DNA of 60,043 nt from the IMG/VR virus record IMGVR_UViG_3300020050_007391, positions 1 to 60,043 of that record, one strand, 5' to 3'. The DNA is from a virus. The notes beneath the pieces were generated by a model. It saw nothing but the letters and a program-made list of their open reading frames with translations, was not told the origin of the DNA and made no database searches. Positions 26,737-44,127 of this stretch are shown piece by piece (position 1 is the first letter of the stretch; each line of letters begins with the position of its first letter). The position numbers and the translations under genes are program-made.

Positions 26737-26740
26737 AGGA

Positions 26741-27439: not shown

Positions 27440-28350
27440 TGGTTTCCCAGAACCTTTTGCAAGGATTATCACAAGGCGAAAACCCTGTTGCTCAGGCATT
27501 CGACGCCAGAACACAGCAGCTTGAACAAAAGAGAGCGGCGGAGCAGAAGGCTATCGACGACAAACAAAGGCAGCATGATCAGGATATGCTCAAGGTTTTC
27601 GAGTTTGCTGGCGACGGGTATGTTGATGAGGCGCGTTATTTCGCCCAGCAGAAGGGCCTGCAAGTGCCTGAATCAATCTATGGTAATGCTGACATGGCCA
27701 AAGGCTTGTCGCTGGCAGGGAAGATATACGGCGACGATGCCGCTGCCGCCCAGAAATTCACGACCGCATGGATGGGCACGCAGGGCGATATGAACACAAG
27801 GCTGTTGGCAGCACAGAAGGCTGCCGGTGCCGCCGTCAATCCGGAAGATCGTCAGCTTCAAAAGCAGATTGCTCTGGAGAACTGGAAACTCAAAAACCGC
27901 GTCGGGGGCAGCGAAAACAACGGATTTTCCCTTTCTCCGGGCCAAACACGGTATAACGCTGCTGGTGGCATCATTGCATCAGCTCCTGCGGCAGACGATA
28001 ATGGAGAATATGAAGCCTATTCAAAGGCTTACAATGCAGCTATTTCCAGCGGTCTTATGTCTCAGGAAGAAGCGCAGCAGGCGGGAGAGAACGCTGCCGC
28101 CCAATACCGCTTGTACAACCAAAGACCAGCAGCGCCACCACCATCTGGGAACATTCAGCCAGCGATGACGTCAGCGCCGACACCAGCCGGGCAACAGAAC
28201 AAAGGCGTCTATGCCGTTCAACAAATGCTCCTGCCCGCTTCTGCTGGCGGCAGGGGCTTGACACCGGATCAGGTTATGCAAGGATTGATACAGCGAGGTG
28301 CCACAGAGCAACAAGCGCGTCAACTCCTTAACGCCGCCGGGGTCAATTGA
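27439..28350 (+). CDS. Internal virion protein candidate.
   Basis: Track ORF, Gln/Ala-rich. Its start shares the terminal A of the upstream stop (TAATG), and its own stop shares an A with the start of the giant gene (TGATG). Confidence 0.45.
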   Translation: MVSQNLLQGLSQGENPVAQAFDARTQQLEQKRAAEQKAIDDKQRQHDQDMLKVFEFAGDGYVDEARYFAQQKGLQVPESIYGNADMAKGLSLAGKIYGDDAAAAQKFTTAWMGTQGDMNTRLLAAQKAAGAAVNPEDRQLQKQIALENWKLKNRVGGSENNGFSLSPGQTRYNAAGGIIASAPAADDNGEYEAYSKAYNAAISSGLMSQEEAQQAGENAAAQYRLYNQRPAAPPPSGNIQPAMTSAPTPAGQQNKGVYAVQQMLLPASAGGRGLTPDQVMQGLIQRGATEQQARQLLNAAGVN

Positions 28351-31300
28351 TGGCAGACAATAACGACGATCTTTTCAATGCAGCATTAGGAAGTTTGAGC
28401 CAGCCAGCACCGGCGCAAACGCCATCGTCAGCGACACCGGAAATCGGCGGCGACGATCCTTTGTTCTCTGCGGCAATGAAAGGTCTTCCTCCTGCGGATA
28501 TTGGAACAGGAGAGAAAGTAACAAGGTCGGTTGCTGCTGGGCTTGGCGCTATTCCTGAGTCGGTTTGGGGAACGGTCGAAGCCATATCAGGCGTAGGATC
28601 GGATTATATTACAGGCCCGCTTGATGAGGGTCTAAAGATGCTTGGCTCTGATCCTTCCGGAGATAAGGACGTTTTCGGTGCTGTACGAGATTTCGCACAT
28701 GAAATGAAGGGCGGAATTAAGACATCAAATCAGCAAACAATAGAACCCGTCATGAAAAATGCTGGGATCATTGGAAGAGGTGTTTACGGAGGCATACAAT
28801 CACTCGCATCAAACGCACCGGGTATCGCCATGTCAGTTATGACTGGCAATCCATTACCTGCTCTTGCTTCCGCCGGTCTTGTCTCTGGTGGGACGGCAGC
28901 AGGCGATGCGCTTGATAAAGGAAAAACACCGACAGAAGCCTTGCAATACGCTGTCATGCAAGGCGGCTCTGAAATATTAACCGAGAAGATTCCTGTCGCT
29001 CGACTTCTCGGAGATTTGAAGGCTGGATCGGGGTTCTTAAAAACTCTCGGCCATCAGATGATTACAGAGGTTCCGTCAGAGCAGGTTGCTACAATATGGC
29101 AGAATTTCAATGAATGGGCTTTCCTCAATCCAGAGAAGCCATTCTCTGAATACTTGAATGCACTGCCAGAAGATATGGCATTGACGCTGGTTTCTACGTT
29201 GGTTTCAACAGGCATACAGACCGGCGCTATGCACACACTGGACCGTGCAATTAATGGGAAGAGGGAAAAAGAGGAAGAGCCTCCACCAGAAGATCAGACA
29301 CCACCACAAAATCCACCAAGATCAACCCGCGATGATCTGGAAGCTGCGATGCAGCGACCGGAGGTGCAATCCCCCCCCGCCCCGTCCCCTGAAACTGCAC
29401 CTGTCACTCAGGCAGTCGCCCCCGCAGCCGCACCCTCTCCCACACCGCCTATGGCGGATACCACTGGTGCGGCACCAGCCCAGCAGGGATTTAGACCCGG
29501 CAACATCGTTGAGCATGTCAACGGTTATGGCGAGGTCATAAAAGGAACCGTCGAGAGCGTACAAAATAGTTCCATTGGCCAGACGGTGCAAGTTATTGAT
29601 GAAAAAGGCCAAATACACACGATTTTTGAAGGCGACGGCACGACACAGGTTATTGGTCAAATGCCTGTCTCGACACGGGATGAATTGGCTGCGGCCATGG
29701 AACCAGCTTCCCCCGGTCAGGAATTGGAATCAAAAGACGCGCCACTCGCGCCACAGGCAGACCAAGCAGTTCCGGAACAGAACCTTGCCCCGGAACCTAT
29801 GGGACCGCGCACCTTCAAAGATTCTCTGCCTGATTTGTCCGAAGAAGAGCTGCTGAACCACTATAACGGCAAGAACGTACAGCGCCGTAACATGGCCGCA
29901 GCAGAGCTTGAGCGCCGCTATCCTGAATGGGGCGTCACAAAGGCTATCGATGTCGCACAGGCAGCAGCGTCTGCAAATGTCAGTCCGACAGAAGCACAGA
30001 AGGAAGCCGGAAATTACAAAAAGGGCCACGTCAGTATAAGCGGGCTGCCAATTACTATCGAGAACGCGAAGGGTTCAATGAGAAGCGGCACAGATCGCTA
30101 CGGCAAAAACTGGCAAGTCCAGATGCCCGCGCACTACGGATACGTCAAGCGCACTACCGGAGCCGATGGCGACCACGTTGATGTCTATATCGGTGACAAC
30201 CACCAGTCTCAGAACGTCTACGTTGTTGATCAGATCAATGAAGACACGAAGGAGTTCGATGAACATAAGGCATTGGTCGGATTTAACACGATCCAAGAGG
30301 CCATGAGCGCATACGAAGACGGGTTCTCGGATATGAAAGCTGAGCATCGTGTCGGTGCCGTCACTATCATGACCATGGCGGAGTTCAAAGATTGGCTGAA
30401 AAACGAGAACACCAAGAAGCCTCTGCTTTATAAAAAGCCTGAGAACGATAATCCTTTTGTTCCGACAGAGGAAAAGTATCCTGTCGATGTTCCTTTTGAG
30501 GACACGAAACCGCCAGCGCAAGAAATAAAACCTGAACCGAGCGTGGAAGAATCCAAGCCAGAGCCTGCACAGGCCGAAGGGCAACCGGAGCAGCAGAATG
30601 CTGAACCGGCCCCCGCCGAGGCTACGCAGGGTCCGCAGCAGGGCACGGTGGGAATGAAACTGGCGGCAGGTCAAGTCGTTCTGACAACGACAGGACGTGA
30701 AACATCGCCATTCCCGAAGGTCGATACAAGCAACGACAGAAAGACGGCAAATACCATTAAGCGCGTCGATAATTGGCTCATGCAGAACGCGCTGGACGAG
30801 GCGCGGGCGCGTGGTGATGAGTTCAACGCCCGCCAGTTTGAGGCGAACCTGAGCAAGCCGTCGCCTGCCGACAAGGATTCGGCGGAATATTACCTGTTCG
30901 ATCCTGATTTTGTCTTCACGCCACCGGCGGAGCCGAAACCAATGACCCCTACACAAGATGAAGGGAATTACTCTGTTCAGGAAGAGACTATGCGGCGTAT
31001 GACCGCAGAAGAAAAGCGACTGAATGAAGGAGAATGGACGGTTGTAGCGGAAAGAAAAAGCCCTTGGTCTGTTGAAAATGGTTTTGGACAAACTCAAGAG
31101 GATGCCAGATCGGATGCCCTGCGTCGCGTTGGGTTTTCAAATCAGGAGGAAAAACCGGAAGTTGGGCCTGCGCCGAGTGAGCCAGAGAACGCGCCCGCGC
31201 AGGAACCGGGTAATGTCCAGCAGCCCGAATCTGGCGGCGGTGAGGTCAATGCAGTAAAGGCCGTGGCCGTTAAATCTTCACTGTATGAAGCCATCAAAAA

Positions 31301-34300
31301 GGGCGGAAAAGACCCTACAATGTATGTCTTTTCACCGGCAGAGGCGCTGGAGATCATTGCTGAACTTGAGGAAAAGAGCGCCGATCAATGGGGTCATGGC
31401 GTTGGCGTGACCGTAAGGGTTTCAAAATATTACAAAGACCCTGCTGACGGCATCGCGTTTTCTGTTGCCGATGGGATCGGCAGGAAGATCAGTATTTCAG
31501 ACGATGTAAGATCATTCCTTTATCCAGAGGCGACGCAGCCCGCCGCCGAATCACCCCCCCTGCAACCCCCAGAGGTTGCAGTACCAGACGCACCGACGAC
31601 GCCATCCACCGTCATTAAAATTTCTGATGTCAGTGTGAACGATAGCCGAGGCGGCGAAATGTTCGGGTATAAGGAACTGACCGTTGACGGCAAGGCATTG
31701 GTAGGCGCTGACATTAACCTGTATAACGGCGGCGTTTATATTCAGAACATTGTTACGAGGCAGGAGGCGCGGAGAAAGGGATACGCCAAGAAATTGGTAG
31801 ATGACTTGTTCCGCGAATTCCCTGACGAAAAAATCTTCGTGTCAAACATGACCGATGACGGCGGAGCTTTCTTCCGTGCCACATATAACGTCGGAGAAGA
31901 CGGCCATATTACAAAAAAAGAGCGCGGCAAAAAGCTGAAAGATGTTGGGGAAAAGATGGATGGCAAGCGGGCCTTCCAAGACCGGATGAAGAAGGCCAAG
32001 GCGTCGGAGCAGGCAAAGCAGATCATCGCCGCGACGAAGAAGGCCGCTGTTTTCAATATCGAAAAGCGCGAGGAACAGACCACCGGAACGGTACGGTTTG
32101 CGCAGACCCTGCTCGATAATATTGAGGATTTCAGCGCCCACCTGAAAAAGATCGGCGCAATCAGTCCGGGAGATCGCAGCAGATACGGTTACAAAATGCC
32201 GGGATGGGAAGAACAGGTCAAAATCCTGTTCTCTGAAAATATTGAACGCGACGGCGACCGCTTCGTGGTTGGAAGCTGGCGCTATACAGCCGAGCAGATC
32301 GAAAAGAAAAAGAAGGCGATTATCGAAGCCGCTGAAAACTTTATCGAATACGGCTCACGCATCAGCGATATGTTTGCCTTTTCCGACACGGTTGCAGAAT
32401 TCAAGCTGGAACTGAAAAACGCGCTGGAAGATGAAGAATTCTCGGACCTGCTGAAAGAGTTCCAGAAGCATTACAGCCTTGAGCGCAGCCTGTTTTCAGA
32501 CAATAAATGGGACACATTCGGAGCAATCACGGATGATTGGAATATCGTAGAGAATCAACGCGCCAAGCCGATGGTGCGCCCGAAGCTGGAGCATATCGTG
32601 CGCGACGGCCTGCCGGATCGCAGGAATGGCCGCGACATAACGCCGCAGGAGTTCAAGGATACGTTCGGATTCCGTGGCGTCGAATTCGGGGAATGGGTCA
32701 ACGCAAAAGAAGGGCAAGCGCATATCAACCACGCCTATGATGCGCTCTTGGATATGGCCGAGCGCCTGAAAATCACGCCGCAACATATCTCCTTGGGCGG
32801 TAAGCTGGGTTTCGCCTTCGGCAGCCGTGGAAGCGGGGAACACGCCGCGCATTTCGAGCCGGATACCAACGTCATCAACCTGACAAAGACAAAGGGCGAC
32901 GGTTCTGTAGCGCACGAATGGCTTCACGCGCTGGACTTCAACCTGCGCAAGAATGATGCTGCGTCTAAACGATTGATGGACCTTGCCTATATGTCGCTGG
33001 AGCGCGATGTGAAAATCGACATCAAGGGCATGGTCAATGATTTCCTGCTGGATAAACGCGCCTTCTATCGCGGCAACAAAAAGATGGATTACGGCGCTGT
33101 CGGCCATGCGCGGGAGTATCTAAATCGCATTGTTCTAAGTAAGGCCACGAATCCAGACTATTACCCTATGACGAAGTTCAAGCGCGAGGGCGACGCGCTC
33201 GGCAAGGACTATTGGGGGACCGGGAAAGAGTTGCTGGCGCGGGCATGGGAATCCTTCATCTATGACACGCTGGCAGGTAAGTCGCCCTATCTGGTCAATG
33301 ATTGGGTGGGGGATGGCACGGTCACGAAAGACGCCGGTTTCCGGGGCATCCCGTACCCGACAGGCGAGGAACGCGCCAGATTCAACACGTTTTTTGACGA
33401 ATTCCTGAAACTTATCGAGTTTTCGGACGTTGGGGTGAAGTTCAAGGACGGCGCAAAATTGCCGATTGAGCAGGAATTTGATAAAATTGTTAATGAGGCG
33501 CAATCTTATCTGCCAAAACTGGCAGAAATGTTGCAGGAGGCCAAAAATGGAACTGTTCAGCAAGACCCGATTCAAACAGGCGTATCAGATGGCGATGGCG
33601 CAGCAAGCGCCGAAGGACTACCGGGAACTGGTACGGACGAAGACATTGAAAGACTATTTGGGCGAGGTCGCGGAGGAAGCGCAGCAGATGTTCGACCAGA
33701 CCGTGAAGAATCTCAAGGAGAATCGGGGGATGGGCGAGGAAGCGCAGTTCGTGGCGACGGAGATAGTCTTCGCGGAAATGATACAGTTTTAGAGCCGCAA
33801 GGCCCGGAAGCTGAAATCCCGGTCTATAACGCCAAGGGTGAAAATCACATCATCCCGGTCGGCGCTCTCGATGAGAAGCGCGGCCAGCGGCAAAAAGCCA
33901 AAGACAATATCCAGATCATCAAACTGGTCAAGCAGATCGAGTCGGAAGACCGCGCCGCGACGCCGGAAGAACAGGAACTCCTTGCCAAATATACCGGGTG
34001 GGGCAGCGTCAAGAATGTTTTCCCCGATGGCACCGGCCAGTTGAAAGAAGACTGGAAGGGTCTCGGCAACGAGGTCAAGGAACTTCTGACCGAGAAAGAA
34101 TATTCCGAAGCCCGCCGCACCATTCAATACGCGCACTATACGTCGGAAATTGTCGTCCGCAGCATGTGGCAGGCAATGGAGCGTTTCGGCCTGAAATCCG
34201 GAACGGTGTTTGAACCGGGCATGGGGATTGGTAACTTCGCCGGGATGATGCCGCAGGGGATGCACCTGAATTATTCCGGCCTCGAATTCGACAGCATGAC

Positions 34301-37300: not shown

Positions 37301-40300
37301 CCAGCCGTCCGGCGCGTACAAAAATGTCACCCGTCTGGCGGAATTCAGGAATCTCGGCGTCCTGTCGCAGCAGGTCAATATGTTCATGGATACCGTTACC
37401 AGCGACGAACTCGGATCACTGGTGGACCGCCCAACCATGAAAACCGGGACCATGATTATCCGCACCACCAAGCCGACGCGGGAATACATGGCCTTCCAGA
37501 AATATCTGGAGCATCGCACCGACGAAGTGGCGAAGGCGAAGCAGAAGAACGCCAAGGGCGCGGATAATATCCTGTCCATCATTGGCGAGGGCCGGAAAGC
37601 CGCCGTCGATATGCGTATGATCGACCCGACGCTGCCGGAGAAGCCTTCCAAGCTGGAAGATATGATCGAAACCGTCTTTGAAGTCTGGAAACGGACCTCG
37701 GATGATAATTTCAAGAACAAATACAGCGGCGATGACTCGCCCGCGCCGATCAAAGGCGGGGTGCAGCTTATCTTCTCCGATCTCGGCGTCCAGACCATCA
37801 GCAAAGATGGAAAATCGTTCTCGGCCTACGACCATATCCGCCGCAAGCTGATCCGCAACGGCGTCCCGGCATCGCAGGTGGCCTTTATTGCCGATTACGA
37901 CACCTTCGTTAAGAAGGTCCAGCTTCAATTCAAACTGCGCAAGGGCGAAATCCGTATCCTGATCGGCTCGACGGCGAAAATGGGGACCGGCCTTAATGTG
38001 CAAAACCGCCTGAAAGCGATCCATAATCTTGACGCGCCGTGGCTGCCTGCCGATCTGGAGCAGCGTATCGGTCGCGGTCTTCGCCAAGGCAACCAGTACA
38101 AAGAGATTGAAGTTTACGGCTACGGCACGGAAGGCTCCTACGATTCGACCATGTGGGGGATGCTGGAAACCAAAGCCAAGGCGATCATCCAGTTCCTGAA
38201 AGGCGACCGCAACATGACCTCGATGCGCGACATCGAGGAAACAGACCATTTCCGCATGGCAAAAGCCATGACTTCCGGCGATCCCCGCGTATTGAAGCAG
38301 GCGGAATTGATGTCGGAAGTCGAGAAGCTGGACCGTCAATCAAAAAATTTCCGCAACGAGCAGGTGCGTATCCGGTCTGATATTTCCTCGAAAGAGGCTG
38401 GTATCGAATACCACCACCAGCGGATTGATGACATCACCACAGCGGCAGCCAAGCGCAAGACACCGGAAGAAAACAAATTCCTGATGACGGTGCAGGGGAA
38501 GCCCTATGACGAGCGGGCCAAGGCAGCCGAGGCGCTGGAACTGGCGATCAAGGGGTTGATTGCAAACAATGTCGATACACCGGCAGGCGGCGTCAAAATT
38601 GGCGAATTGCAGGGCTTCGATGTGCATATGTTTATTGCCACCGGAAACCTTGGAACTTCCTATGAGATTTTCCTGAATGATCCGGCTTTTGGTCAGGATG
38701 ATGCAAAGCGTTGGGTATCGAGCGCGGATTCTGAAATTTCCGCCTCCGGCACGATCACGACGCTGACCAATGCGCTCAACCGCATGGAAAAGAACAAGGA
38801 AAAATCGCAATCCACCATCGAGTCCAACAAGCGAGAGATCGGCGTCCTGAAAAGCCAGATTGCCGATAAATTCCCGAAAGAAGCGGAACTGGCCGACAAG
38901 AAAAAGCAACTGGACGAGATCGACACCGATCTGAAACTGAACGCGCCGGTCGAGGTTGTCTATGACGAATACCCAATCTCTTATTGGGAAGCCAACAAAG
39001 AGGCCATGAACTCTAAATTCTACATTGTTAACGATGAAGAAGAGGTATATGGGTGGACTTCTGTACCTGCTGATAAGGAAAAGGCCGTCAAAGGTTCTGA
39101 TCTGCGTAATCGCCTTGAAAATGACCTGACAAGACGACTGAAACAGCTTGGTTTCGACCGTACAAACATTACCGTTATCACGAATGCAGACTTGAGAACG
39201 CAGGATGGCCGCAGCGTTCAAGGCGCATATAAGGATAATGTGATCTGGCTTTCTATGGCAGATGATCCCATATCAATCCTTGATCACGAGGCGATACACG
39301 CCCTGCGTGATGCCGGTGCATTCACCGATCAGGAGTGGCGTACACTGGAAGCACAAGCGAAAAAATGGCGTCAGAAGTTCAATATCGACAGCCGTTATGA
39401 GGGCAGAGGGCTGACAGAAGAGGCGCTGAACGAAGAAGCCATTGCCGACGGGTTCAAGAATTTCGCTATGAATGGGTCAGAGAATGGCCCAGCCCGCCGT
39501 ATTTACAACAAGGTTGTGAGATTCCTGCAAGCTATCCGTGACGTTCTGCGCGGTAAGAAATGGGATTTCAAGACGGCAGACGACATATTCAAATCAATCG
39601 ACCGTGGCGAAGTTACGGAGCGCATCGTCGGGAAGACAGGAGATAAACGTACCGGCGAACGTATTATGTACTCTCAAAAAGGAAACATTAAGACTGATAG
39701 TGATGCCTTCAAGAAGTGGTTTGGCGACAGCAAAGTTACAGGTTCAGACGGAAATCCGCTGGTTGTTTATCATGGTACTCGTGCCGATATAGAGGCATTT
39801 GATCCGCAGAAATTAGGAGAAAACACTCAGGCCGAATCTGCAAAACATGGATTTTTCTTTGCCTCCAGTGCCGATGTTGCATCGTCATATGCAGAAATAG
39901 ATAGTATAGGATTTGAGGATACCGCTTGGTTTAAGGCTATTGACAGGGCGACAAAAGGAATTATTGGCAAAGCATCTGAAAAAGTCATGCTTTCCCTTGG
40001 TTATGAGAAAGTTCCAGAGACAGACACGCCAAATGTGATTCCTGTATATCTGTCTATTAAGAACCCAATGACTGTTGATTTCAAAAACAATAGATACCGG
40101 GAAAAAACATATAATGAGATTATTACAGAAGCAAAGTCTTCTGGACATGATGGTGTAATTCTTAGGAACACATTTGATCCCGGTCGCGCTTCACACGGAA
40201 GAGAAAAGACCGATGTTTTTGTGGCATTCAAACCAGCACAAATAAAATCGGTCAACAATCGCGGTACGTTCGACCCTGATGATGCCCGTATATTGTTCTC

Positions 40301-43073
40301 TCTTCCTGAGAATAAGAAAGACGCACTCAAAGAAGCAGAAGCCAACCTTGATCGCATTAAGGGAATGGAAGATAGTTTCCGTCCGTCTCTAGCCCGTATT
40401 TCATCTTATATCCTGCACCCGCACCAGATCGCATCTCTATACAAGTCTTTCACGCCTGTTTACATGGAAGCGATCAAGATGATGAAGTCACGCGACGTTA
40501 TCGTTCACACACTGACAAGCGACATTGACCTTTATAATAAGCTGAAAAAACAGCCCAAGAAACGTGTCAACGCCGTTCTTGAGCTTGGCAGGCTGATGAA
40601 GGAAAACTTTGAACGTGATGACAATGGCAATATCACTGTAGAGAACCTCGGATTAACGCAAGCCCGTCATAGCAAGGCCGGTGAGAAGATAACCCTGACT
40701 GGCCCGGAAGTCGCCGCATATATCGGTGTTCGCAGAGCCATGAACAAGGCCCTCAACATCTACATGGAAACCATACTTCAAGAATATGGATATGTTGATA
40801 AGGGCATTAACACACGGGAGAAGCTGGCAAGAGCAATTAAGGATGAAACCGATCAGCGCGAAATCCAGCGTATGCAAGAAGTTTTGAAGATGCTAAGCGA
40901 GATCGAGGCGCAGCAGCGCATGGGGTATATCCCATTCAAGCGATGGGGCGAGGTCGGTATAACTGTCCGCCGCAAGGGCGAAGAAGATGAAGACGATCAG
41001 CTTGTTTTGTTCGACCGCATTGAGCTGCCGAAATCGAAGATACTGCGCGGTGATAAGATAGGCGAGAATAAGATTGTCCGTGAGGCTGTCAAGAAGATCA
41101 CCGACGAATACCCGGCGGACAAATACGATGTCACAGTTTTCGAGGTCAAAGACTTCACCAGCTTGCAAGCAAACCTGAAACTCAATGAACTTGATGTTCT
41201 GGCTGCCAGCAGCGATATGAGCATGGAAGACTATGGATACCTGCGCGGAATGCTGGAAGATGCCATGAAGCGTCGCGGATTCCGTTCTCACTTCTTCAAA
41301 GCAGACGATGTGCCGGGCTATAGCGACGACTTTGAACGTGCGATTAACGATTATATCGTTAGCATTTCCGGCCATCTGTCGCGCCGCAAACACATTCCGA
41401 AGCTGGATAAGGCTGTCAGTGAGATCGAGAAAGCTGGCGAAGCTTCGTTATTCGACTACGCCCGCAAGTACGTTTCATATATTACCGATCCGAAAGAAGA
41501 GTTTGGCTCTATCCGCCAAATGGCCTTCCTTTGGTATCTGGCCGGTAACATTGCCTCCGGATTTACCAACCTGATGCAGACAACAATGGTGACGGCCCCT
41601 TGGTTGAAAGCGATGTTCTCTCATACCCAGATTGCAGAAAAGATGTCTGTCGCCTACAAGGATGCGATATCGATGATTGATGTATCGGCAGGTACAGATG
41701 TCTTCAACTTCGACAAAGCCCCTTATGATGTCCGTCTGGCATTGAAAAAGGCAGAGGCAGAGGGTGATTTCATCCCGCTCAACACATTCGATGCTATGGC
41801 GATTGCGAATACCAATATCGCCTATCTGCGCGGAATCGACCGGACAGCCCGTAACCTTATGGACGTTGTAGGTATAACATTCTCAACACCAGAGCGCCTT
41901 AACCGGGTTGTCACGTATATAACCGCTTATAGATTTGCAATTGATCCAAATAACCGCCAGAAGATCATGTCGTTCGTCAACCGCGATCAGATCGGGAAAC
42001 AAAGCCTTCAAGGCAAGACAGGCGCAGAATTTGCTGCTGCCTTTGCAGACTATGCTGTGTTTTCAACGCAGTTCCGCATGGGAAAACTCAATAGGCCATC
42101 ACTTGCTCGTGGCATAGGGACGCTTCCATTCCAGTTCCTGTCATTTTCTATGCAGGCGTTCGAGCTGATGTATAGGCTTGGTAAAGTCCATGGCGAGAAA
42201 GCTGGAATGTCTGCATTTATTATGCTGATGTTTGTGATAGCGATGTCTGGAATCAAGGGTTTCCCGTTTGCCGAGGACGTTCAGACCATGATTGAGAAGG
42301 TCTACAAGCTCCTGAGCCGTACAGACCTAGATATTGATGCTGAAATGAGAAAGATTCTGGCAGAAACAGTGGGCGTCACAGCCGCAGATGCGATTATGAA
42401 GGGTGTCCCATCGGCGCTATTGAACGTCGATATGTCTGGCCGTCTTGGTTTCGGCAATATTGTCCCTGACAACACGAGCGACCTGTACGGCGTCTGGTAC
42501 GATATGCTCTTCACAAAACCAAGTCAGGCCGCCATCGACGTTGCCCGTGGTAACTATATTGATGCCTTTGCTAATATTTCACCAGCATTCCTCAGAAACC
42601 CCCTGCAAGCTTATTCTTGGGCAGAGGGCGGCATACGATCTGGCCGCACTGGCGATCCGATCATTACGAAGGAAGAAATCAATGATTCTGACATATTCTT
42701 GAAGGCTCTGGGGTTCACTTCCGGTAATGTCGCCCGCGAACGCGATAGAGTGTATTCTGAGCAACGTGCATCCAGAGCCGTTGACGACCTGCGGGCTGAT
42801 TATTATGACCGTCTGGCCCGCGCCTATGTCTCCAGAAAGAACGCATACGGCAAAGACCCGGAAGCAACACAGGCGTATCAGGACCAGATTGAGTCTATAA
42901 TGGCTGAAATAGCACGCTATAATGAGGATGAGCCGCTTTACAGGCAGATCATCATTAATCCCAAAACCCTCAAGCAGCGCATTATCAAAGAGGTAAAGGG
43001 TGCCGAAGCTAACAAAGTGAGAAAACAGGCCCGAGGCGAAGCGGAAAGACTGAAAGAAGCCTATGGCAAATAA
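28350..43073 (+). CDS. Giant multidomain 'polyvalent' virion/ejection protein of about 4,907 aa. Domains in order: pyrophosphatase-like, GNAT-like, zincin, N6-adenine MTase, SF2 helicase, second zincin, ART-like, C-terminal membrane module.
   Basis: One uninterrupted ORF. The track start is TTG 28347; the ATG at 28350 shares its A with the upstream TGA. Motifs are listed in the domain features below. Confidence 0.9.
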   Translation: MADNNDDLFNAALGSLSQPAPAQTPSSATPEIGGDDPLFSAAMKGLPPADIGTGEKVTRSVAAGLGAIPESVWGTVEAISGVGSDYITGPLDEGLKMLGSDPSGDKDVFGAVRDFAHEMKGGIKTSNQQTIEPVMKNAGIIGRGVYGGIQSLASNAPGIAMSVMTGNPLPALASAGLVSGGTAAGDALDKGKTPTEALQYAVMQGGSEILTEKIPVARLLGDLKAGSGFLKTLGHQMITEVPSEQVATIWQNFNEWAFLNPEKPFSEYLNALPEDMALTLVSTLVSTGIQTGAMHTLDRAINGKREKEEEPPPEDQTPPQNPPRSTRDDLEAAMQRPEVQSPPAPSPETAPVTQAVAPAAAPSPTPPMADTTGAAPAQQGFRPGNIVEHVNGYGEVIKGTVESVQNSSIGQTVQVIDEKGQIHTIFEGDGTTQVIGQMPVSTRDELAAAMEPASPGQELESKDAPLAPQADQAVPEQNLAPEPMGPRTFKDSLPDLSEEELLNHYNGKNVQRRNMAAAELERRYPEWGVTKAIDVAQAAASANVSPTEAQKEAGNYKKGHVSISGLPITIENAKGSMRSGTDRYGKNWQVQMPAHYGYVKRTTGADGDHVDVYIGDNHQSQNVYVVDQINEDTKEFDEHKALVGFNTIQEAMSAYEDGFSDMKAEHRVGAVTIMTMAEFKDWLKNENTKKPLLYKKPENDNPFVPTEEKYPVDVPFEDTKPPAQEIKPEPSVEESKPEPAQAEGQPEQQNAEPAPAEATQGPQQGTVGMKLAAGQVVLTTTGRETSPFPKVDTSNDRKTANTIKRVDNWLMQNALDEARARGDEFNARQFEANLSKPSPADKDSAEYYLFDPDFVFTPPAEPKPMTPTQDEGNYSVQEETMRRMTAEEKRLNEGEWTVVAERKSPWSVENGFGQTQEDARSDALRRVGFSNQEEKPEVGPAPSEPENAPAQEPGNVQQPESGGGEVNAVKAVAVKSSLYEAIKKGGKDPTMYVFSPAEALEIIAELEEKSADQWGHGVGVTVRVSKYYKDPADGIAFSVADGIGRKISISDDVRSFLYPEATQPAAESPPLQPPEVAVPDAPTTPSTVIKISDVSVNDSRGGEMFGYKELTVDGKALVGADINLYNGGVYIQNIVTRQEARRKGYAKKLVDDLFREFPDEKIFVSNMTDDGGAFFRATYNVGEDGHITKKERGKKLKDVGEKMDGKRAFQDRMKKAKASEQAKQIIAATKKAAVFNIEKREEQTTGTVRFAQTLLDNIEDFSAHLKKIGAISPGDRSRYGYKMPGWEEQVKILFSENIERDGDRFVVGSWRYTAEQIEKKKKAIIEAAENFIEYGSRISDMFAFSDTVAEFKLELKNALEDEEFSDLLKEFQKHYSLERSLFSDNKWDTFGAITDDWNIVENQRAKPMVRPKLEHIVRDGLPDRRNGRDITPQEFKDTFGFRGVEFGEWVNAKEGQAHINHAYDALLDMAERLKITPQHISLGGKLGFAFGSRGSGEHAAHFEPDTNVINLTKTKGDGSVAHEWLHALDFNLRKNDAASKRLMDLAYMSLERDVKIDIKGMVNDFLLDKRAFYRGNKKMDYGAVGHAREYLNRIVLSKATNPDYYPMTKFKREGDALGKDYWGTGKELLARAWESFIYDTLAGKSPYLVNDWVGDGTVTKDAGFRGIPYPTGEERARFNTFFDEFLKLIEFSDVGVKFKDGAKLPIEQEFDKIVNEAQSYLPKLAEMLQEAKNGTVQQDPIQTGVSDGDGAASAEGLPGTGTDEDIERLFGRGRGGSAADVRPDREESQGESGDGRGSAVRGDGDSLRGNDTVLEPQGPEAEIPVYNAKGENHIIPVGALDEKRGQRQKAKDNIQIIKLVKQIESEDRAATPEEQELLAKYTGWGSVKNVFPDGTGQLKEDWKGLGNEVKELLTEKEYSEARRTIQYAHYTSEIVVRSMWQAMERFGLKSGTVFEPGMGIGNFAGMMPQGMHLNYSGLEFDSMTSRIARILYPQFGVRHADFTSARYADNMFDAAIGNPPFSSMKVKGDAKYKDLSLHNYFFVKTIDMVAPGGVVAFVTSRYSMDTIDSSARDMMAEKVDLVGAIRLPDTAFKTNAHTEVVTDIIFLRKRLPGEEANGVKWSQVEELKLADKNGKPFVVNEYFINNPEMVLGNFSSEGSMYAEGTLTVSPVKNADLQQQLQEAIERLPENVISEVQKADVGHIDMDVADKDGTYYLKGDVLMQVDGKQGFPVTMRGKGAGGITKAEAEKIRGLIPVRDALRKTMAAMLARDDKAMKAAQKDLKKHHSAYVKKYGPITKSETESRVPSAGQIEEARDDLRADFLAADEEFDEGDIDLSSLLNKVNPETGKKYTPAQIGTIRRKRREEIEAAGGVVNEGDFNPDDVPDNITVKYPNLDPFKGDPEYYNLMILENYNEETGEAKTTDVFEKNIIAEIRKPEIKTAVDALNYSLITTNDIDIDMMSKELGTNRDAVIDELEQLDLIYKLPDPYTGNPVYIYSEEYLSGYVKDKLAFAKRLAESDPVYKRNVAALEAVQPTDIEPSSINTQLGSPYFEPKVIEDFMRQELNIPVSISYTKAINHWEVTAHDPRAPENINQYGTSSRSASDIMERLLMRKDLKVTRKTTDPETGKDKQVVDVEETQAANDKAKILQEKFDKWVWQSSHAERVHRKYNDEYNNVVPRKYNGEHVNAGVSPQAAPKGLMKHQKNIIWRILQSGNTYIAHAVGAGKTLEMIASAMEMRRLGQWKKPMFVVPNHMLAQFSKEFMEAYPQAKIMVADERNFHTDRRKRFISNVAGSDLDAVIITFSGFKKIGVSSMFEIEMTEREMNKYRAALEEAGGKKASKSRGSTASAIEKKLEAMQKRLDSLKADKDNTFTFEELGVDGLLVDEGHNFRKLSFSTMQGTMKGVNPVGSQMSWDLYMKSRYLEKINPGRGLVLASGTPLTNTLAEIFTIQRYMSEKELERNGLNNFDAWSSVFAASVTNPERQPSGAYKNVTRLAEFRNLGVLSQQVNMFMDTVTSDELGSLVDRPTMKTGTMIIRTTKPTREYMAFQKYLEHRTDEVAKAKQKNAKGADNILSIIGEGRKAAVDMRMIDPTLPEKPSKLEDMIETVFEVWKRTSDDNFKNKYSGDDSPAPIKGGVQLIFSDLGVQTISKDGKSFSAYDHIRRKLIRNGVPASQVAFIADYDTFVKKVQLQFKLRKGEIRILIGSTAKMGTGLNVQNRLKAIHNLDAPWLPADLEQRIGRGLRQGNQYKEIEVYGYGTEGSYDSTMWGMLETKAKAIIQFLKGDRNMTSMRDIEETDHFRMAKAMTSGDPRVLKQAELMSEVEKLDRQSKNFRNEQVRIRSDISSKEAGIEYHHQRIDDITTAAAKRKTPEENKFLMTVQGKPYDERAKAAEALELAIKGLIANNVDTPAGGVKIGELQGFDVHMFIATGNLGTSYEIFLNDPAFGQDDAKRWVSSADSEISASGTITTLTNALNRMEKNKEKSQSTIESNKREIGVLKSQIADKFPKEAELADKKKQLDEIDTDLKLNAPVEVVYDEYPISYWEANKEAMNSKFYIVNDEEEVYGWTSVPADKEKAVKGSDLRNRLENDLTRRLKQLGFDRTNITVITNADLRTQDGRSVQGAYKDNVIWLSMADDPISILDHEAIHALRDAGAFTDQEWRTLEAQAKKWRQKFNIDSRYEGRGLTEEALNEEAIADGFKNFAMNGSENGPARRIYNKVVRFLQAIRDVLRGKKWDFKTADDIFKSIDRGEVTERIVGKTGDKRTGERIMYSQKGNIKTDSDAFKKWFGDSKVTGSDGNPLVVYHGTRADIEAFDPQKLGENTQAESAKHGFFFASSADVASSYAEIDSIGFEDTAWFKAIDRATKGIIGKASEKVMLSLGYEKVPETDTPNVIPVYLSIKNPMTVDFKNNRYREKTYNEIITEAKSSGHDGVILRNTFDPGRASHGREKTDVFVAFKPAQIKSVNNRGTFDPDDARILFSLPENKKDALKEAEANLDRIKGMEDSFRPSLARISSYILHPHQIASLYKSFTPVYMEAIKMMKSRDVIVHTLTSDIDLYNKLKKQPKKRVNAVLELGRLMKENFERDDNGNITVENLGLTQARHSKAGEKITLTGPEVAAYIGVRRAMNKALNIYMETILQEYGYVDKGINTREKLARAIKDETDQREIQRMQEVLKMLSEIEAQQRMGYIPFKRWGEVGITVRRKGEEDEDDQLVLFDRIELPKSKILRGDKIGENKIVREAVKKITDEYPADKYDVTVFEVKDFTSLQANLKLNELDVLAASSDMSMEDYGYLRGMLEDAMKRRGFRSHFFKADDVPGYSDDFERAINDYIVSISGHLSRRKHIPKLDKAVSEIEKAGEASLFDYARKYVSYITDPKEEFGSIRQMAFLWYLAGNIASGFTNLMQTTMVTAPWLKAMFSHTQIAEKMSVAYKDAISMIDVSAGTDVFNFDKAPYDVRLALKKAEAEGDFIPLNTFDAMAIANTNIAYLRGIDRTARNLMDVVGITFSTPERLNRVVTYITAYRFAIDPNNRQKIMSFVNRDQIGKQSLQGKTGAEFAAAFADYAVFSTQFRMGKLNRPSLARGIGTLPFQFLSFSMQAFELMYRLGKVHGEKAGMSAFIMLMFVIAMSGIKGFPFAEDVQTMIEKVYKLLSRTDLDIDAEMRKILAETVGVTAADAIMKGVPSALLNVDMSGRLGFGNIVPDNTSDLYGVWYDMLFTKPSQAAIDVARGNYIDAFANISPAFLRNPLQAYSWAEGGIRSGRTGDPIITKEEINDSDIFLKALGFTSGNVARERDRVYSEQRASRAVDDLRADYYDRLARAYVSRKNAYGKDPEATQAYQDQIESIMAEIARYNEDEPLYRQIIINPKTLKQRIIKEVKGAEANKVRKQARGEAERLKEAYGK
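29988..30400 (+). other. Domain in the giant ORF: inorganic-pyrophosphatase-like segment.
   Basis: GNYKKGHVSISGLPITIEN...TTGADGDHVDVYIGD...VYVVDQI. GADGDHVDV resembles the DGDPxDV metal-site motif of family I PPases. Confidence 0.4.
31600..31900 (+). other. Domain in the giant ORF: GNAT-type acetyltransferase-like.
   Basis: YIQNIVTRQEARRKGYAKKLVDDLFREF fits the GNAT motif A (R/Q-x-x-G-x-G/A). Confidence 0.5.
32600..33300 (+). other. Domain in the giant ORF: zincin-like metallopeptidase (first HExxH).
   Basis: GDGSVAHEWLHALDF, with HEWLH encoded at 32913..32927. Confidence 0.5.
33950..34800 (+). other. Domain in the giant ORF: gamma-class N6-adenine DNA methyltransferase.
   Basis: Motif I VFEPGMGIGNF is followed by motif IV AAIGNPPFSS, with NPPF at 34401..34412. 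Confidence 0.8.
36440..38110 (+). other. Domain in the giant ORF: SF2 (SNF2/DEAD-like) helicase.
   Basis: AVGAGKT (36519..36533), LLVDEGHNF (DEGH at 37005..37016), LASGTPLTN, STAKMGTGLNVQ and EQRIGRGLRQGN. Confidence 0.8.
39230..39560 (+). other. Domain in the giant ORF: second HExxH motif region.
   Basis: ILDHEAIHALRDAG, with HEAIH encoded at 39285..39299. Confidence 0.4.
39740..40260 (+). other. Domain in the giant ORF: ADP-ribosyltransferase-like (ART of polyvalent proteins), tentative.
   Basis: LVVYHGTRADIEAFD ... HGFFFASSADVASSYA ... VIPVYLSIKNP ... GHDGVILRNT resembles the H-G-T / S / acidic pattern of phage ART-like modules. Confidence 0.35.
41500..42520 (+). other. Domain in the giant ORF: hydrophobic helices plus a GRLGFG (PLxRFG-like) motif.
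   Basis: MAFLWYLAGNIASGFTNLMQTTMV, GIGTLPFQFLSFSMQAFELMY, MSAFIMLMFVIAMSGIKGF, then VDMSGRLGFGNIVP. Confidence 0.5.
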
Positions 43074-43136: not shown

Positions 43137-43517
43137 ATGGACGCCAGTGTAGATATCAAGATTGACGAGCAGGCCACGGAAACAGCCACATGGAACCTGA
43201 CGGCAGATGAGCCAGATGGGGAGTGGTGGAAGAGCGTCGGTAAATCCGACAAATCGTTCCATATTTTTGGTGATTTGGATGGTGGCGTTGTCGAGCTGAA
43301 CGGATCAGGCGACAAGCGGTGCGTGACCGACAAGGCCAATGCCGCATTCTTCAAAATACGCGATCCTGACAGGAATTTAATCGCTGTCAGCAGTGTATCT
43401 GACGATTACAATGCAGATATAATTTTCATCAACCCCGTATATATGCGACCGAGACTTGTTGGCGCTGGTCCAAATGCCAATGTCTACGTTGTCGTTACAG
43501 GCGCGTATGTTCGTTAA
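43137..43517 (+). CDS. Hypothetical protein.
   Basis: Track ORF with an AAGGAGA RBS. Confidence 0.6.
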   Translation: MDASVDIKIDEQATETATWNLTADEPDGEWWKSVGKSDKSFHIFGDLDGGVVELNGSGDKRCVTDKANAAFFKIRDPDRNLIAVSSVSDDYNADIIFINPVYMRPRLVGAGPNANVYVVVTGAYVR

Positions 43518-43533
43518 TTAAGGAGATAATGCC

Positions 43534-44103: not shown

Positions 44104-44127
44104 TTAAACCTCACTATAGGTGAAGCC

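What the first reader, a model, noticed from the sequence alone, without database searches (positions are those of the whole stretch)
28350..43073. A 14.7-kb single ORF encodes a polyvalent, probably injected, counter-defence protein
About a quarter of the genome is one uninterrupted ORF. Reading the translation, I can place these elements in order:
- a Gly/Ala-rich hydrophobic N-terminus and Pro-rich linkers
- a pyrophosphatase-like GADGDHVDV segment
- a GNAT-like RQEARRKGYAKKL
- HEWLH (32913..32927)
- gamma-class N6-adenine MTase motifs, FEPGMGIGNF and NPPF (34401..34412)
- a full SF2 helicase motif set, GAGKT at 36519, DEGH at 37005, SGTP and QRIGRGLRQGN
- a second HEAIH (39285..39299)
- a YHGT/FFASS ART-like segment
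- C-terminal hydrophobic helices

The gene sits exactly where P22-type genomes carry ejection proteins, after the gp10-like and needle genes and four Gly/Gln-rich small proteins. That position suggests it is packaged and delivered with the DNA.

Fusions of this kind are known as polyvalent proteins of phages and conjugative elements. P1 DarB is a packaged MTase-helicase that protects incoming DNA from type I restriction. Very large virion proteins are also reported in Bcep22-like podophages.

The particular domain combination and order here, especially PPase-like plus GNAT plus two zincins plus an ART-like segment around a DarB-like core, is what deserves attention.
Basis: partly seen in the sequence, partly recalled or inferred. 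Interest (0 to 1): 0.85.

Follow-up and report, generated by a model that had tools for sequence, protein, structure and literature searches.

The report
Giant injected phage multi-enzyme protein
One gene filling a quarter of this roughly 60-kb short-tailed phage genome encodes a 4,907-residue chain of enzymes that is very probably packed into the virus particle and injected with the DNA, but it is a new example of an already described class, not a new kind of thing.

Summary

Profile and structure searches support almost all the motif-based domain calls:
- InPase, ART-PolyVal and LPD1, all above Pfam cut-offs
- a gamma-type N6-adenine methyltransferase and an SF2 helicase, collinear with P1 DarB and 33-40% identical to Bcep22, Gervaise and PEp14 'DarB-like' giants
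- a CLCA_X-type zincin (HEWLH)
- a second zincin (HEAIH), supported by conserved ligands and a model
- a small GNAT, supported by its predicted fold
- a C-terminal PLxRFG domain

Packaging and ejection are inferred, not shown. The gene closes the virion operon. Homologues were found in virions by mass spectrometry. The protein has no cysteines where about 47 are expected, which is a published hallmark of ejected proteins.

The class is well known. It includes the polyvalent proteins of Iyer et al. 2017, Bcep22 gp75, PEp14 gp27 (4,914 aa) and Pavtok gp27 (5,007 aa). The partial combinations also exist elsewhere.

What differs here:
- no N-terminal transglycosylase; a widespread polyvalent-protein N-module stands in its place
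- an exact mosaic of modules not seen elsewhere in these searches
- strongly uneven GC3 along the ORF

Verdict: new member of a known kind, modest interest.

The parts
28350..43073 (+). Single 4,907-aa ORF (546 kDa, no cysteines): a giant DarB-like polyvalent virion protein, and the last long gene of the late structural operon.
   Evidence: Start is an ATGA overlap with the upstream ORF. No stop codon in 14.7 kb.
28512..29279 (+). Conserved N-terminal module (aa 55-310, Gly/Ala-rich). It is the N-terminal 'chassis' of a large family of 2,000-4,100-aa cysteine-free phage polyvalent proteins. It sits where Bcep22-type giants carry an SLT transglycosylase.
   Evidence: 1,355 representative clusters, almost always with the match near residues 110-400 of the protein; 104 of 121 long members have no cysteine. 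Pfam content of 17 members. IMG/VR relatives.
29991..30401 (+). InPase domain (aa 548-684), a type I inorganic-pyrophosphatase fold that keeps the DGDxVDV metal-binding motif.
   Evidence: PF18823, 173 bits against a cut-off of 26.8; weak match to PRK01250; the same domain sits at the C-terminus of a solved phage portal, 9b41_L.
30672..31010 (+). Unnamed conserved domain (aa 775-887), 53% identical to F116 p59 residues 684-799.
   Evidence: No Pfam match.
31602..31919 (+). Minimal GNAT acetyltransferase domain (aa 1085-1190) with the acetyl-CoA motif RRKGYA.
   Evidence: six GNAT Pfam families hit the same stretch, the best at 20.3 bits against a cut-off of 20.7; stand-alone homologues of 127-135 aa; model pLDDT 86; top 50 Foldseek PDB hits are all GNATs, the best being PanZ/YhhK at E 6e-4.
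32598..33416 (+). Zincin metallopeptidase 1 (CLCA_X type, HEWLHALD at aa 1522-1529) together with LPD1 (aa 1617-1689).
   Evidence: NF041907, E 1.4e-34. LPD1; 36% identity to Stx2-86 gp35, with AAHxEP, AHEWxHxLD and ARAxE conserved. PMC3650047 and PMC5512222 describe the family.
33522..38939 (+). DarB-like core (aa 1725-3530), collinear with Bcep22 gp75, Gervaise gp28, PEp14 gp27 and P1 DarB. GC3 is 0.69.
   Evidence: PHROG 10089..
34134..34778 (+). Gamma-type N6-adenine DNA methyltransferase domain. Motif I is FEPGMGIGNF (aa 1954) and motif IV is NPPF (aa 2018), 64 residues apart.
   Evidence: Eco57I, 26.6 bits against a cut-off of 25.3.; aligns with P1 DarB residues 91-307.
36447..38309 (+). 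SF2 (SNF2 / ResIII-type) helicase with GAGKT, DEGH, SGTP and QRIGRGLRQGN.
   Evidence: C-terminal lobe similarity to DrmD and BrxH; aligns with P1 DarB residues 570-1291 and 1467-1590.
39102..39629 (+). Zincin metallopeptidase 2 (aa 3585-3760). HEAIH at aa 3646-3650, and an EE pair at aa 3695-3696 on a later helix.
   Evidence: 14 homologues, with H, E, H and EE invariant or nearly so; model pLDDT 76 with zincin topology. PDB search not significant, but the top hits are IrrE/PprI zincins. BFVD hits down to E 8e-8 on segments of large polyvalent phage proteins.
39717..40274 (+). ART-PolyVal ADP-ribosyltransferase domain (aa 3790-3975) with a 41-aa insert. GC3 is only 0.33.
   Evidence: PF18760, 70.9 bits against a cut-off of 31.2; 34% identity to F116 p60. 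H3808, Y3900 and D3934 conserved in at least 26 of 30 sequences..
40926..42986 (+). C-terminal PLxRFG ('tail-700') domain (aa 4193-4879), containing the only strong TM-like segment (aa 4613-4640, nt 42186-42269).
   Evidence: NF032893, 233 bits against a cut-off of 100; shared with PEp14, Skulduggery and F116 p60..
24477..28350 (+). Five cysteine-free, low-complexity small ORFs directly upstream: a needle-like candidate and four Gly/Gln/Ala-rich proteins. They are candidate co-ejected proteins.
   Evidence: No profile hits. Together with the giant ORF they form a 6,188-aa cysteine-free block.
23059..24477 (+). gp10-like tail hub / nozzle gene, which anchors the module as P22-like.
   Evidence: PHROG 578, E 6e-30. 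PDB 9vyg_M and 7eeq_1.

Best explanation
The ORF encodes a giant 'DarB-like' polyvalent virion protein of the kind found in Bcep22-, PEp14- and F116-like podophages.

**Shown by the sequence**
- It is a single chain.
- Its parts, in order, are: a conserved N-terminal polyvalent-protein module; Pro-rich linkers; InPase; a small GNAT; a CLCA_X zincin with LPD1; an N6-adenine methyltransferase plus SF2 helicase core homologous to P1 DarB; a second zincin; an ART-PolyVal ADP-ribosyltransferase; and a C-terminal PLxRFG domain with one TM-like helix.

**Inferred**
- It is made late, as the last gene of the virion operon.
- A few copies are packed into the head. At about 1.2 nm3 per kDa, one copy displaces the volume of only about 0.6 kb of DNA.
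- At infection it is threaded, at least partly unfolded, through the tail and the periplasm, together with the five cysteine-free small proteins encoded just upstream. Passage through the oxidising periplasm would explain why it has no cysteine.
- Inside the cell, the methyltransferase-helicase core acts on the entering genome to blunt type I restriction, as P1 DarB does.
- InPase, GNAT and ART act on host nucleotides or proteins in the first minutes of infection.
- The two zincins, which bracket the core, may cut the chain into separate effectors. This is the most speculative step.
For: **Domain identities**
-.

**Homology**
- Collinear with Bcep22, Gervaise and PEp14 giants at 33-40% identity over about 1,800 aa.
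- Collinear with P1 DarB in three segments.

**Genome position**
- The gene sits at the end of the structural operon, as in Bcep22, Gervaise, PEp14, Skulduggery and F116.

**Virion presence of homologues**
- JC1 gp69 was detected by mass spectrometry with 51 unique peptides. The same paper cites mass spectrometry of Bcep22 virions (PMC9144972).
- Stx phage phi24B gp47 is abundant in virions (bioRxiv 10.64898/2026.04.10.717836). The giant protein of a related Stx phage (Stx2-86 gp35) is homologous to aa 1422-1698 here.

**Absence of cysteine**
- There are 0 cysteines in 4,907 aa. The window background of 0.96% predicts about 47, so P is about 2.5e-21.
- There are also none in the five upstream ORFs, in Bcep22 gp75, Gervaise gp28, PEp14 gp27, Skulduggery gp28 and Stx2-86 gp35, or in 104 of 121 long proteins that share the N-module.
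- Cysteine suppression is a published hallmark of ejected phage proteins (PMC11445570).

**Other support**
- Very large putative ejection proteins with P1 homology are recognised in short-tailed phages (PMC8402733).
- The InPase domain also occurs on a portal C-terminus, which is a head-internal location.
Against: - No experimental data exist for this phage. Packaging, ejection, processing and every enzymatic activity are inferred.
- The N-terminal lytic transglycosylase of the Bcep22, PEp14 and Skulduggery giants is absent, and tblastn with their N-termini finds no SLT anywhere in the window. The entry mechanics may therefore differ.
- No homologues of the P1 packaging partners DarA, DdrA or DdrB were found.
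- The nearest relatives by capsid and portal (KPP25, MW202615) carry unrelated giant terminal proteins. Function cannot be carried over by phage lineage alone.
- The second zincin has no significant match in the PDB.
- Anti-restriction activity has been shown only for P1 DarB, which is 22-29% identical.
Confidence: 0.75

Rival explanations
1. It is mainly a structural ejectosome or internal-core protein, the functional equivalent of T7 gp15/gp16 or P22 gp7/16/20. On this view its essential job is to build or extend the trans-envelope conduit for the DNA, and the enzymatic modules are dispensable passengers.
For: - It sits in the ejection-protein slot, after the gp10-like gene and the small low-complexity proteins.
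- It has no cysteine.
- The N- and C-terminal modules are conserved across many giants whose cargo varies.
- There is a TM-like helix in the PLxRFG domain.
- A conduit role has been proposed for phi24B gp47 (bioRxiv 10.64898/2026.04.10.717836).
- Relatives carry an N-terminal SLT, as T7 gp16 does.
Against: - About 60% of the chain consists of recognisable enzymes that keep their catalytic motifs.
- The core is homologous to a proven anti-restriction protein.
- This protein lacks the SLT domain.
- The two roles do not exclude each other, so this is a rival only in its exclusive form.
Confidence: 0.15
2. It is not packaged. It would be a late cytoplasmic enzyme complex that methylates or remodels progeny DNA, and modifies host factors, in the producing cell before lysis.
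For: - The methyltransferase and helicase could act on replicating or packaging DNA.
- The gene is late-expressed by position.
- No DarA-like packaging partners were found.
Against: - Homologues are found in purified virions (PMC9144972; bioRxiv 10.64898/2026.04.10.717836).
- A purely cytoplasmic enzyme has no reason to lack cysteine entirely (PMC11445570).
- It carries terminal modules shared with virion proteins.
Confidence: 0.05
3. The single ORF is an assembly or annotation artefact that fuses what are really two or more genes, as in F116, where the equivalent region is split into p59 and p60.
For: - The window looks like a metagenome-assembled circle, with a 104-bp terminal overlap.
- GC3 varies from 0.33 to 0.69 along the ORF.
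- F116 has a split version.
Against: - A misassembly would have to keep the reading frame across every junction with no stop codon in 14.7 kb.
- Homology-supported domains lie in the same frame from aa 55 to aa 4879.
- Single ORFs of 4,511-4,914 aa with the same core exist in isolated, sequenced phages.
- P0099 and P0132 independently join the N-module to the core in one protein.
Confidence: 0.03

Closest known systems
Bcep22 gp75 / BcepIL02 / JC1 gp69 and Ralstonia Gervaise gp28, the 'DarB-like antirestriction' giants (4,511-4,602 aa)
   Same: - The methyltransferase-helicase core is 37-40% identical and collinear over about 1,800 aa.
- It is the last long gene of the virion operon in a roughly 60-kb podophage.
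- It takes up about a quarter of the genome.
- It has no cysteines.
- JC1 gp69 was found in virions by mass spectrometry.

Sources; PMC9144972.
   Different: - Those proteins start with an SLT lytic transglycosylase and carry LPD3 and LPD38. This one has no SLT.
- This one has a different N-module, plus InPase, GNAT, two zincins, ART and a PLxRFG C-terminus.
- Bcep22-like phages encode a separate GNAT gene upstream, and it shows no sequence similarity to the GNAT fused here.
Erwinia phage PEp14 gp27 (4,914 aa), its relative Pavtok gp27 (5,007 aa), and Pseudomonas phage Skulduggery gp28
   Same: - Almost identical length.
- Homologous core (33-37% identity; PEp14 only).
- Homologous C-terminal PLxRFG domain (23-24% identity).
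- No cysteines.
- Same genome position.

Sources; PMC8402733.
   Different: - PEp14 has an N-terminal SLT plus LPD37 and LPD39.
- It has no InPase, ART or GNAT.
P1 DarB (2,255 aa), a packaged anti-restriction methyltransferase-helicase
   Same: - Same order of N6-adenine methyltransferase followed by SF2 helicase.
- Three collinear alignments, with E from 1e-18 down to 1e-11.
- Its function, protection of the incoming DNA from type I restriction, is the working model for the core.
   Different: - Identity is only 22-29%.
- DarB is less than half the size and has no accessory enzymes.
- It has 9 cysteines.
- It belongs to a myovirus.
- It needs DarA, Hdf, DdrA and Ulx for packaging, and no homologues of those tested were detected here.
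Phage-type polyvalent proteins (Iyer et al. 2017, PMC5512222), in particular the large family that shares this N-terminal module (for example P0099, P0132, P0047)
   Same: - The N-module is 35-52% identical.
- The cargo vocabulary is the same: ART-PolyVal, InPase, methyltransferase/helicase, GNAT and zincins.
- P0099 and P0132 combine N-module + DarB core. P0047 combines N-module + InPase + ART.
- Nearly all members lack cysteine.

Sources.
   Different: - Most members are 2,000-3,000 aa, and 11 of the 17 sampled start with LPD22.
- None of the 150 listed has the full set found here.
- None shows a BLAST match to its PLxRFG C-terminus.
Stx-phage giant protein (phi24B gp47, 2,811 aa; Stx2-86 gp35, 2,783 aa)
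   Same: - The zincin + LPD1 block is homologous (36% identity, active-site residues conserved).
- Stx2-86 gp35 has no cysteines.
- Stx2-86 gp35 is the last gene of its virion module.
- phi24B gp47 is abundant in virions and proposed to be an ejection protein.
- The major capsid proteins of these phages are distantly related.

Sources; bioRxiv 10.64898/2026.04.10.717836.
   Different: - No methyltransferase-helicase core, InPase, ART or PLxRFG similarity was detected outside that block.
N4 gp50 / DEV gp71 virion RNA polymerases (about 3,400-3,500 aa)
   Same: It works in a similar way: a giant, cysteine-free enzyme packed in a podovirus head and ejected to act at the very start of infection, with a zincin-like region and membrane-associating ends (PMC11445570, PMC5512222).
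   Different: The cargo is unrelated (an RNA polymerase). No sequence homology was tested or claimed.
Pseudomonas phage F116 p59 + p60
   Same: - p60 carries ART-PolyVal (34% identity) and the PLxRFG C-terminus (26% identity).
- p59 shares the unnamed domain at aa 775-887 (53% identity).
- Both lie at the end of the virion module.

Sources.
   Different: - The region is split into two genes.
- No BLAST match to the DarB-like core.
- A few cysteines are present (4 and 1).

Membership tests
Phage-type polyvalent protein (Iyer et al. 2017) | Several (2-15) functionally unrelated conflict-type domains in one polypeptide | tested here: met
   At least nine recognisable modules: N-module, InPase, GNAT, zincin 1 / LPD1, methyltransferase, helicase, zincin 2, ART and PLxRFG.
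Phage-type polyvalent protein (Iyer et al. 2017) | Carries family-specific domains (InPase, ART-PolyVal, LPDs) above curated cut-offs | tested here: met
   Bits against cut-off: PF18823 173 vs 26.8; PF18760 70.9 vs 31.2; PF18796 46 vs 27.
Phage-type polyvalent protein (Iyer et al. 2017) | Zincin metallopeptidase hub domain(s) with HExxH and a downstream acidic ligand | tested here: met
   HEWLHALD matches CLCA_X at E 1e-34, and matches the 'Asp three residues after HExxH' phage type (PMC5512222). HEAIH...EE is invariant in homologues and the model has zincin topology. The PDB fold search for the second zincin was not significant.
Phage-type polyvalent protein (Iyer et al. 2017) | Delivered into the cell with the invading DNA | not testable with these tools
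   Only indirect evidence: gene position, virion mass spectrometry of homologues, and absence of cysteine (PMC9144972; PMC11445570).
Bcep22 / PEp14-type giant DarB-like virion protein | ORF of more than 3,500 aa closing the virion morphogenesis operon of a roughly 60-kb podophage | tested here: met
   4,907 aa. It lies after the terminase, portal, major capsid, tailspike and gp10-like genes on the same strand. The genome is 59,939 bp and circular. The layout matches.
Bcep22 / PEp14-type giant DarB-like virion protein | Collinear homology of the methyltransferase-helicase core | tested here: met
   33-40% identity across aa 1725-3530. PHROG 10089, E = 0.
Bcep22 / PEp14-type giant DarB-like virion protein | N-terminal lytic transglycosylase (SLT) domain | tested here: not met
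   No SLT match in Pfam. tblastn with the N-termini of the relatives finds nothing significant in the window. Bcep22, PEp14 and Skulduggery all have it.
Bcep22 / PEp14-type giant DarB-like virion protein | Physically present in purified virions | not testable with these tools
   Shown for JC1 gp69 (PMC9144972, which also cites mass spectrometry of Bcep22 virions). No data for this phage.
P1 DarB | N6-adenine methyltransferase followed by SF2 helicase, homologous to DarB | tested here: met
   Three collinear BLASTP segments at 22-29% identity, E from 9e-19 to 9e-12. Bcep22 gp75 shows a comparable level of similarity to DarB.
P1 DarB | Works with DarA / Hdf / DdrA / DdrB / Ulx for head incorporation | tested here: not met
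   tblastn with P1 DarA, DdrA, DdrB and Ulx against the window gives no significant hit; the best is Ulx at E 0.018. Hdf was not tested.
P1 DarB | Protects incoming DNA from type I restriction in cis | not testable with these tools
   Needs plating assays.
Gamma-class N6-adenine DNA methyltransferase | SAM-binding motif I (FxGxG) closely followed by catalytic motif IV (NPPF/Y) | tested here: met
   FEPGMGIGNF at aa 1954 and NPPF at aa 2018, 64 residues apart. Eco57I Pfam match just above cut-off.
SF2 helicase (SNF2 / ResIII type) | Motifs I, II, III and VI in order; profile matches to both RecA-like lobes | tested here: met
   GAGKT, DEGH, SGTP and QRIGRGLRQGN. ResIII, SNF2-rel_dom and Helicase_C are all above cut-off.
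GNAT acetyltransferase | GNAT fold with the beta4-alpha3 acetyl-CoA motif (Q/R-x-x-G-x-G/A) | tested here: met
   The best Pfam score falls just short (20.3 against 20.7). The pLDDT 86 model matches only GNATs, at probability 1.0 and TM up to 0.59. RRKGYA fits the motif (direct reading). Substrate is unknown.
ART-PolyVal ADP-ribosyltransferase | Profile match, and retention of the residues conserved across the family | tested here: met
   PF18760 at 2e-19. H3808, Y3900 and D3934 are conserved in at least 26 of 30 aligned homologues. Catalytic roles were not assigned experimentally.
PLxRFG ('tail-700') domain proteins | NCBIfam NF032893 match above cut-off at the C-terminus | tested here: met
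   233.5 bits against a cut-off of 100, covering model positions 3-660 of 681. The function of the domain is unknown.

The most novel reading that the evidence does not exclude
The chain may be a self-processing effector polyprotein. On this reading it was assembled recently by in-frame module capture, which would explain GC3 ranging from 0.33 to 0.69 along a single ORF. After ejection the two zincins, which bracket the DarB-like core, would cut it into at least four independent effectors. The InPase, GNAT and ART modules would then disable defences other than restriction-modification, for example immunity based on nucleotide signals or NAD. That would make this a phage analogue of MARTX-type multi-effector toxins, with an activity not yet described.
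Probability: 0.15. Interest if true: 0.6.

Novelty: new member of a known kind. Interest (0 to 1): 0.3.

Why it matters
Giant polyvalent virion proteins are thought to be how many podophages deliver a ready-made anti-defence toolkit at the moment of DNA entry. Almost none of their modules has been tested.

This example is a clean, complete and divergent member. The core is no more than 40% identical to cultured relatives, and no close full-length relative turned up in any collection searched. It shows three things:
- The DarB-like core can be mounted on a different N-terminal chassis, without a transglycosylase.
- InPase, GNAT and ART modules travel with the core.
- Complete absence of cysteine marks the whole ejection block.

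Its value is as a comparative data point and as a source of candidate anti-defence domains. It is not a new principle.

Tried and rejected
**Searches that found nothing or too little**
- Megablast of the gene against 50,697 phage records gave no match.
- A full-length homologous-protein search timed out.
- An exact-sequence look-up found no record.
- Pattern scans of IMG/VR, JGI metagenomes and GTDB genomes found only N-module or core relatives. None had the whole architecture.
- tRNA and Rfam scans were empty.
- Promoter and terminator scans inside and around the gene did not exceed shuffled controls.

**Hypotheses tested and dropped**
- I tested whether the fused GNAT corresponds to the separate 'acyl-CoA N-acyltransferase' gene of Bcep22-like phages. 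phmmer and hmmsearch found no similarity, so this was rejected.
- I tested whether the closest capsid and portal relatives (KPP25, MW202615) carry a homologous giant. They do not, by BLASTP.
- I considered whether the long antisense ORFs inside the gene (up to 472 aa) are real genes. They are rejected. The longest are all in the codon-aligned antisense frame, where stops need TTA, CTA or TCA sense codons, and only 62 of the 4,907 codons are of those types.

**Results that stayed inconclusive**
- Foldseek of the HEAIH model against the PDB gave no significant hit (best E 0.15). Only the ranking, with IrrE/PprI zincins on top, and the BFVD search were informative.
- The 'needle' assignment of 24477..25091 could not be confirmed.

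**Segments left unassigned**
- aa 330-545, 690-1080 (apart from the F116-like block), 1190-1417, 3530-3585 and 3975-4190 gave no credible Pfam match.
Full report
**1. The observation**

The window holds one ORF from 28347 (TTG) to 43073 on the + strand. The plausible start is the ATG at 28350, which overlaps the stop of the upstream ORF as ATGA. The product is 4,907 aa, 546 kDa, pI 5.5.

The first 104 bases of the window recur at its end. The sequence is therefore a circular genome of 59,939 bp, and the gene takes up about a quarter of it.

A stop-free run of 4,907 codons cannot be chance. GC1 > GC2 in every 1.5-kb block, and homology-supported domains lie in the same frame from aa 55 to aa 4879.

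The long antisense ORFs inside the gene are by-products. The longest are all in the codon-aligned antisense frame, and only 62 sense codons are TTA, CTA or TCA.

**2. What the pieces are**

Pfam places these above their curated cut-offs:
- InPase, aa 548-684, 3e-51
- LPD1, aa 1617-1689
- an Eco57I-type methyltransferase, around aa 2002-2079
- ResIII and SNF2-related, aa 2700-2893
- Helicase_C, aa 3194-3247
- ART-PolyVal, aa 3800-3973, 2e-19

PHROG 10089 'DarB-like antirestriction' covers aa 1775-3676 with E = 0.

NCBIfam adds two domains. One is a C-terminal PLxRFG ('tail-700') domain at aa 4193-4879, scoring 233 bits against a cut-off of 100. The other is a CLCA_X zincin at aa 1417-1687, E 1e-34.

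The CLCA_X family was described as a phage- and plasmid-borne relative of CLCA metalloproteases (PMC3650047). HEWLHALD also fits the common phage-type polyvalent metallopeptidase, with Asp three residues after HExxH (PMC5512222). Alignment with Stx2-86 gp35 shows AAHxEP, AHEWxHxLD and ARAxE conserved.

*GNAT.* By Pfam the call was only borderline: six GNAT families hit the same stretch, the best at 20.3 bits against 20.7. Four stand-alone homologues of 127-135 aa, 53-65% identical, exist in metagenomes. With them, AlphaFold gives a pLDDT 86 model. Its top 50 PDB matches are all GNATs, the best being PanZ/YhhK at E 6e-4 and probability 1.0.

*Second zincin.* It has no Pfam match. Fourteen homologues keep H, E, H and an EE pair 45 residues downstream. 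The model (pLDDT 76) has the helix, beta-sheet, HExxH-helix, Glu-helix order of zincins. The PDB fold search is not significant, although IrrE/PprI zincins rank first. The viral library gives hits down to E 8e-8 on segments of large phage proteins, some named RelA/SpoT or 'large polyvalent protein-associated'. I rate this call well supported but not proven.

*ART.* The domain keeps the residues conserved across 30 homologues: H3808, Y3900 and D3934.

*InPase.* It keeps the DGDxVDV metal site. The same domain sits at the C-terminus of a solved phage portal, 9b41_L.

**3. The ends of the protein**

The N-terminal module (aa 55-310) is not a membrane segment by hydropathy. It is a very common module. 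An exhaustive search finds 1,355 representative clusters, almost always with the match near residues 110-400 of proteins 2,000-4,100 aa long.

Seventeen of these were scanned with Pfam, and they are classic phage-type polyvalent proteins. LPD22 occurs in 11 and ART-PolyVal in 7. LPD38, 2H, RadC, InPase, PBECR, RelA/SpoT, GNAT, methyltransferase and SLT also appear.

Two relatives (P0099, P0132) join this module to a DarB-like core. One (P0047) joins it to InPase and ART.

The C-terminal PLxRFG domain is shared with PEp14 gp27, Skulduggery gp28 and F116 p60. It holds the only strong TM-like segment.

**4. Relatives and genome context**

The genome is that of a P22-like podophage. Terminase, portal, major capsid, pectate-lyase tailspike and gp10-like nozzle genes are followed by five small low-complexity ORFs and then the giant gene, all on one strand.

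The core is 33-40% identical to the 4,511-4,914-aa 'DarB-like antirestriction' proteins of Bcep22, Gervaise and PEp14, which occupy the same position. It is collinear with P1 DarB in three segments at 22-29% identity.

Differences from those relatives:
- They open with an SLT transglycosylase and carry other LPDs. No SLT is detectable here or anywhere else in the window.
- The closest phages by capsid and portal (KPP25, MW202615, AP1; 30-42% identity) carry large terminal proteins with no similarity to this one. The giant gene is therefore exchanged between lineages.

GC3 inside the ORF is uneven: 0.41 in the N-module, 0.69 in zincin 1 and the core, and 0.33 in ART. The gene-level mean for the window is 0.54 with sd 0.06. 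That fits a mosaic origin.

**5. Packaged and injected?**

This cannot be shown by computation, but four lines agree:
- The gene sits in the ejection-protein slot.
- JC1 gp69 was detected in virions by mass spectrometry, in a paper that also cites mass spectrometry of Bcep22 virions (PMC9144972). phi24B gp47 is also present in virions (bioRxiv 10.64898/2026.04.10.717836), and the giant protein of a related Stx phage, Stx2-86 gp35, shares the zincin / LPD1 block with this protein.
- The literature already treats such giants as putative ejection proteins that must pass through unfolded (PMC8402733).
- The protein has no cysteine at all. The window background predicts about 47, so P is about 2.5e-21.

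The five upstream ORFs are also cysteine-free. So are Bcep22 gp75, Gervaise gp28, PEp14 gp27, Skulduggery gp28, the KPP25 and MW202615 giants, Stx2-86 gp35, and 104 of 121 long proteins sharing the N-module. Cysteine suppression is a published hallmark of ejected podophage proteins, attributed to passage through the oxidising periplasm (PMC11445570).

**6. Mechanism**

Most likely (confidence about 0.75), a few copies are packed in the head and ejected with the small cysteine-free proteins and the DNA. The methyltransferase-helicase core would then protect the entering genome as P1 DarB does. InPase, GNAT and ART would act on host nucleotides or proteins. The zincins, which bracket the core, may release the modules, as Iyer et al. 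propose for the class (PMC5512222).

Domain identities and homologies are shown. Delivery, processing and targets are inferred.

Rivals:
- a mainly structural conduit protein (0.15 in its exclusive form)
- an unpackaged late enzyme (0.05)
- an assembly fusion (0.03)

**7. Novelty**

The class, the size, the core, each accessory domain, the cysteine signature and even the partial combinations are already on record. What is particular here is the exact mosaic, the lack of SLT, and the compositional patchwork.

No close full-length relative was found in phage records, IMG/VR, JGI metagenomes or GTDB genomes.

Noticed in passing
window 24477..43073: This is a contiguous cysteine-free block of 6,188 residues: five small ORFs plus the giant ORF. 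The other ORFs in the window average 0.96% Cys. Unrelated giant terminal proteins of other podophages (KPP25 gp01, the MW202615 2,166-aa protein) are cysteine-free too. The pattern could serve as a sequence-only predictor of ejected proteins.
   Followed up: yes
window 1..104 and 59940..60043: The first 104 bases are repeated exactly at the end of the window. This is an assembly overlap that indicates a complete circular (or circularly permuted) genome of 59,939 bp.
   Followed up: partly
window 28350..43073 (by module): GC3 is strongly uneven within the single ORF: N-module 0.41, zincin 1 and the DarB-like core 0.69, ART 0.33. The gene-level mean is 0.54 with sd 0.06. This suggests modules captured from donors of different base composition.
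   Followed up: partly
window 30672..31010 (aa 775-887): An unnamed domain is 53% identical to residues 684-799 of Pseudomonas phage F116 p59. That is far more conserved than anything else shared with F116. It has no Pfam family, and in F116 a ParB-like sequence follows it.
   Followed up: no
window 31587..31949; P0016-P0019; L011 3299..3685: The GNAT module also exists as stand-alone 127-135-aa proteins, 53-65% identical, on metagenomic contigs. One sits on an 11.5-kb phage-like contig next to IF3-like, glutaredoxin and NUDIX genes.
   Followed up: partly
window 28353..28490 (aa 2-48): The extreme N-terminus carries a short duplicated motif, DDLFNAALGSL and DDPLFSAAMKGL, ahead of the conserved module. 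Many relatives have an LPD22 domain in this position. It could be a packaging or docking signal.
   Followed up: no
PDB 9b41 chain L, against window 29991..30401: The only solved structure with sequence similarity to the giant protein is a 765-aa phage portal whose C-terminal 130 residues are an InPase domain. So this pyrophosphatase-like domain is repeatedly attached to head-internal proteins.
   Followed up: partly
window 43137..46841: The five + strand ORFs after the giant gene have no PHROG match where scanned (four of the five) and no credible Pfam match. In all relatives examined, a recognisable lysis cassette lies in this position, in some after two short reverse-strand genes. No endolysin or transglycosylase was recognised among the window ORFs I scanned.
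   Followed up: partly
window 12575..13729: A 384-aa cysteine-free ORF with no profile match lies between the portal region and the major capsid gene. By position it could be a scaffolding protein.
   Followed up: no
L025 (Terriglobia MAG contig, 277 kb) and L028: Relatives of the DarB-like core, with best segments 35-47% identical, lie on long contigs of Terriglobia / Acidobacteriota MAGs. They may be prophages or conjugative elements, and they hint at a soil or peat origin for the core.
   Followed up: no
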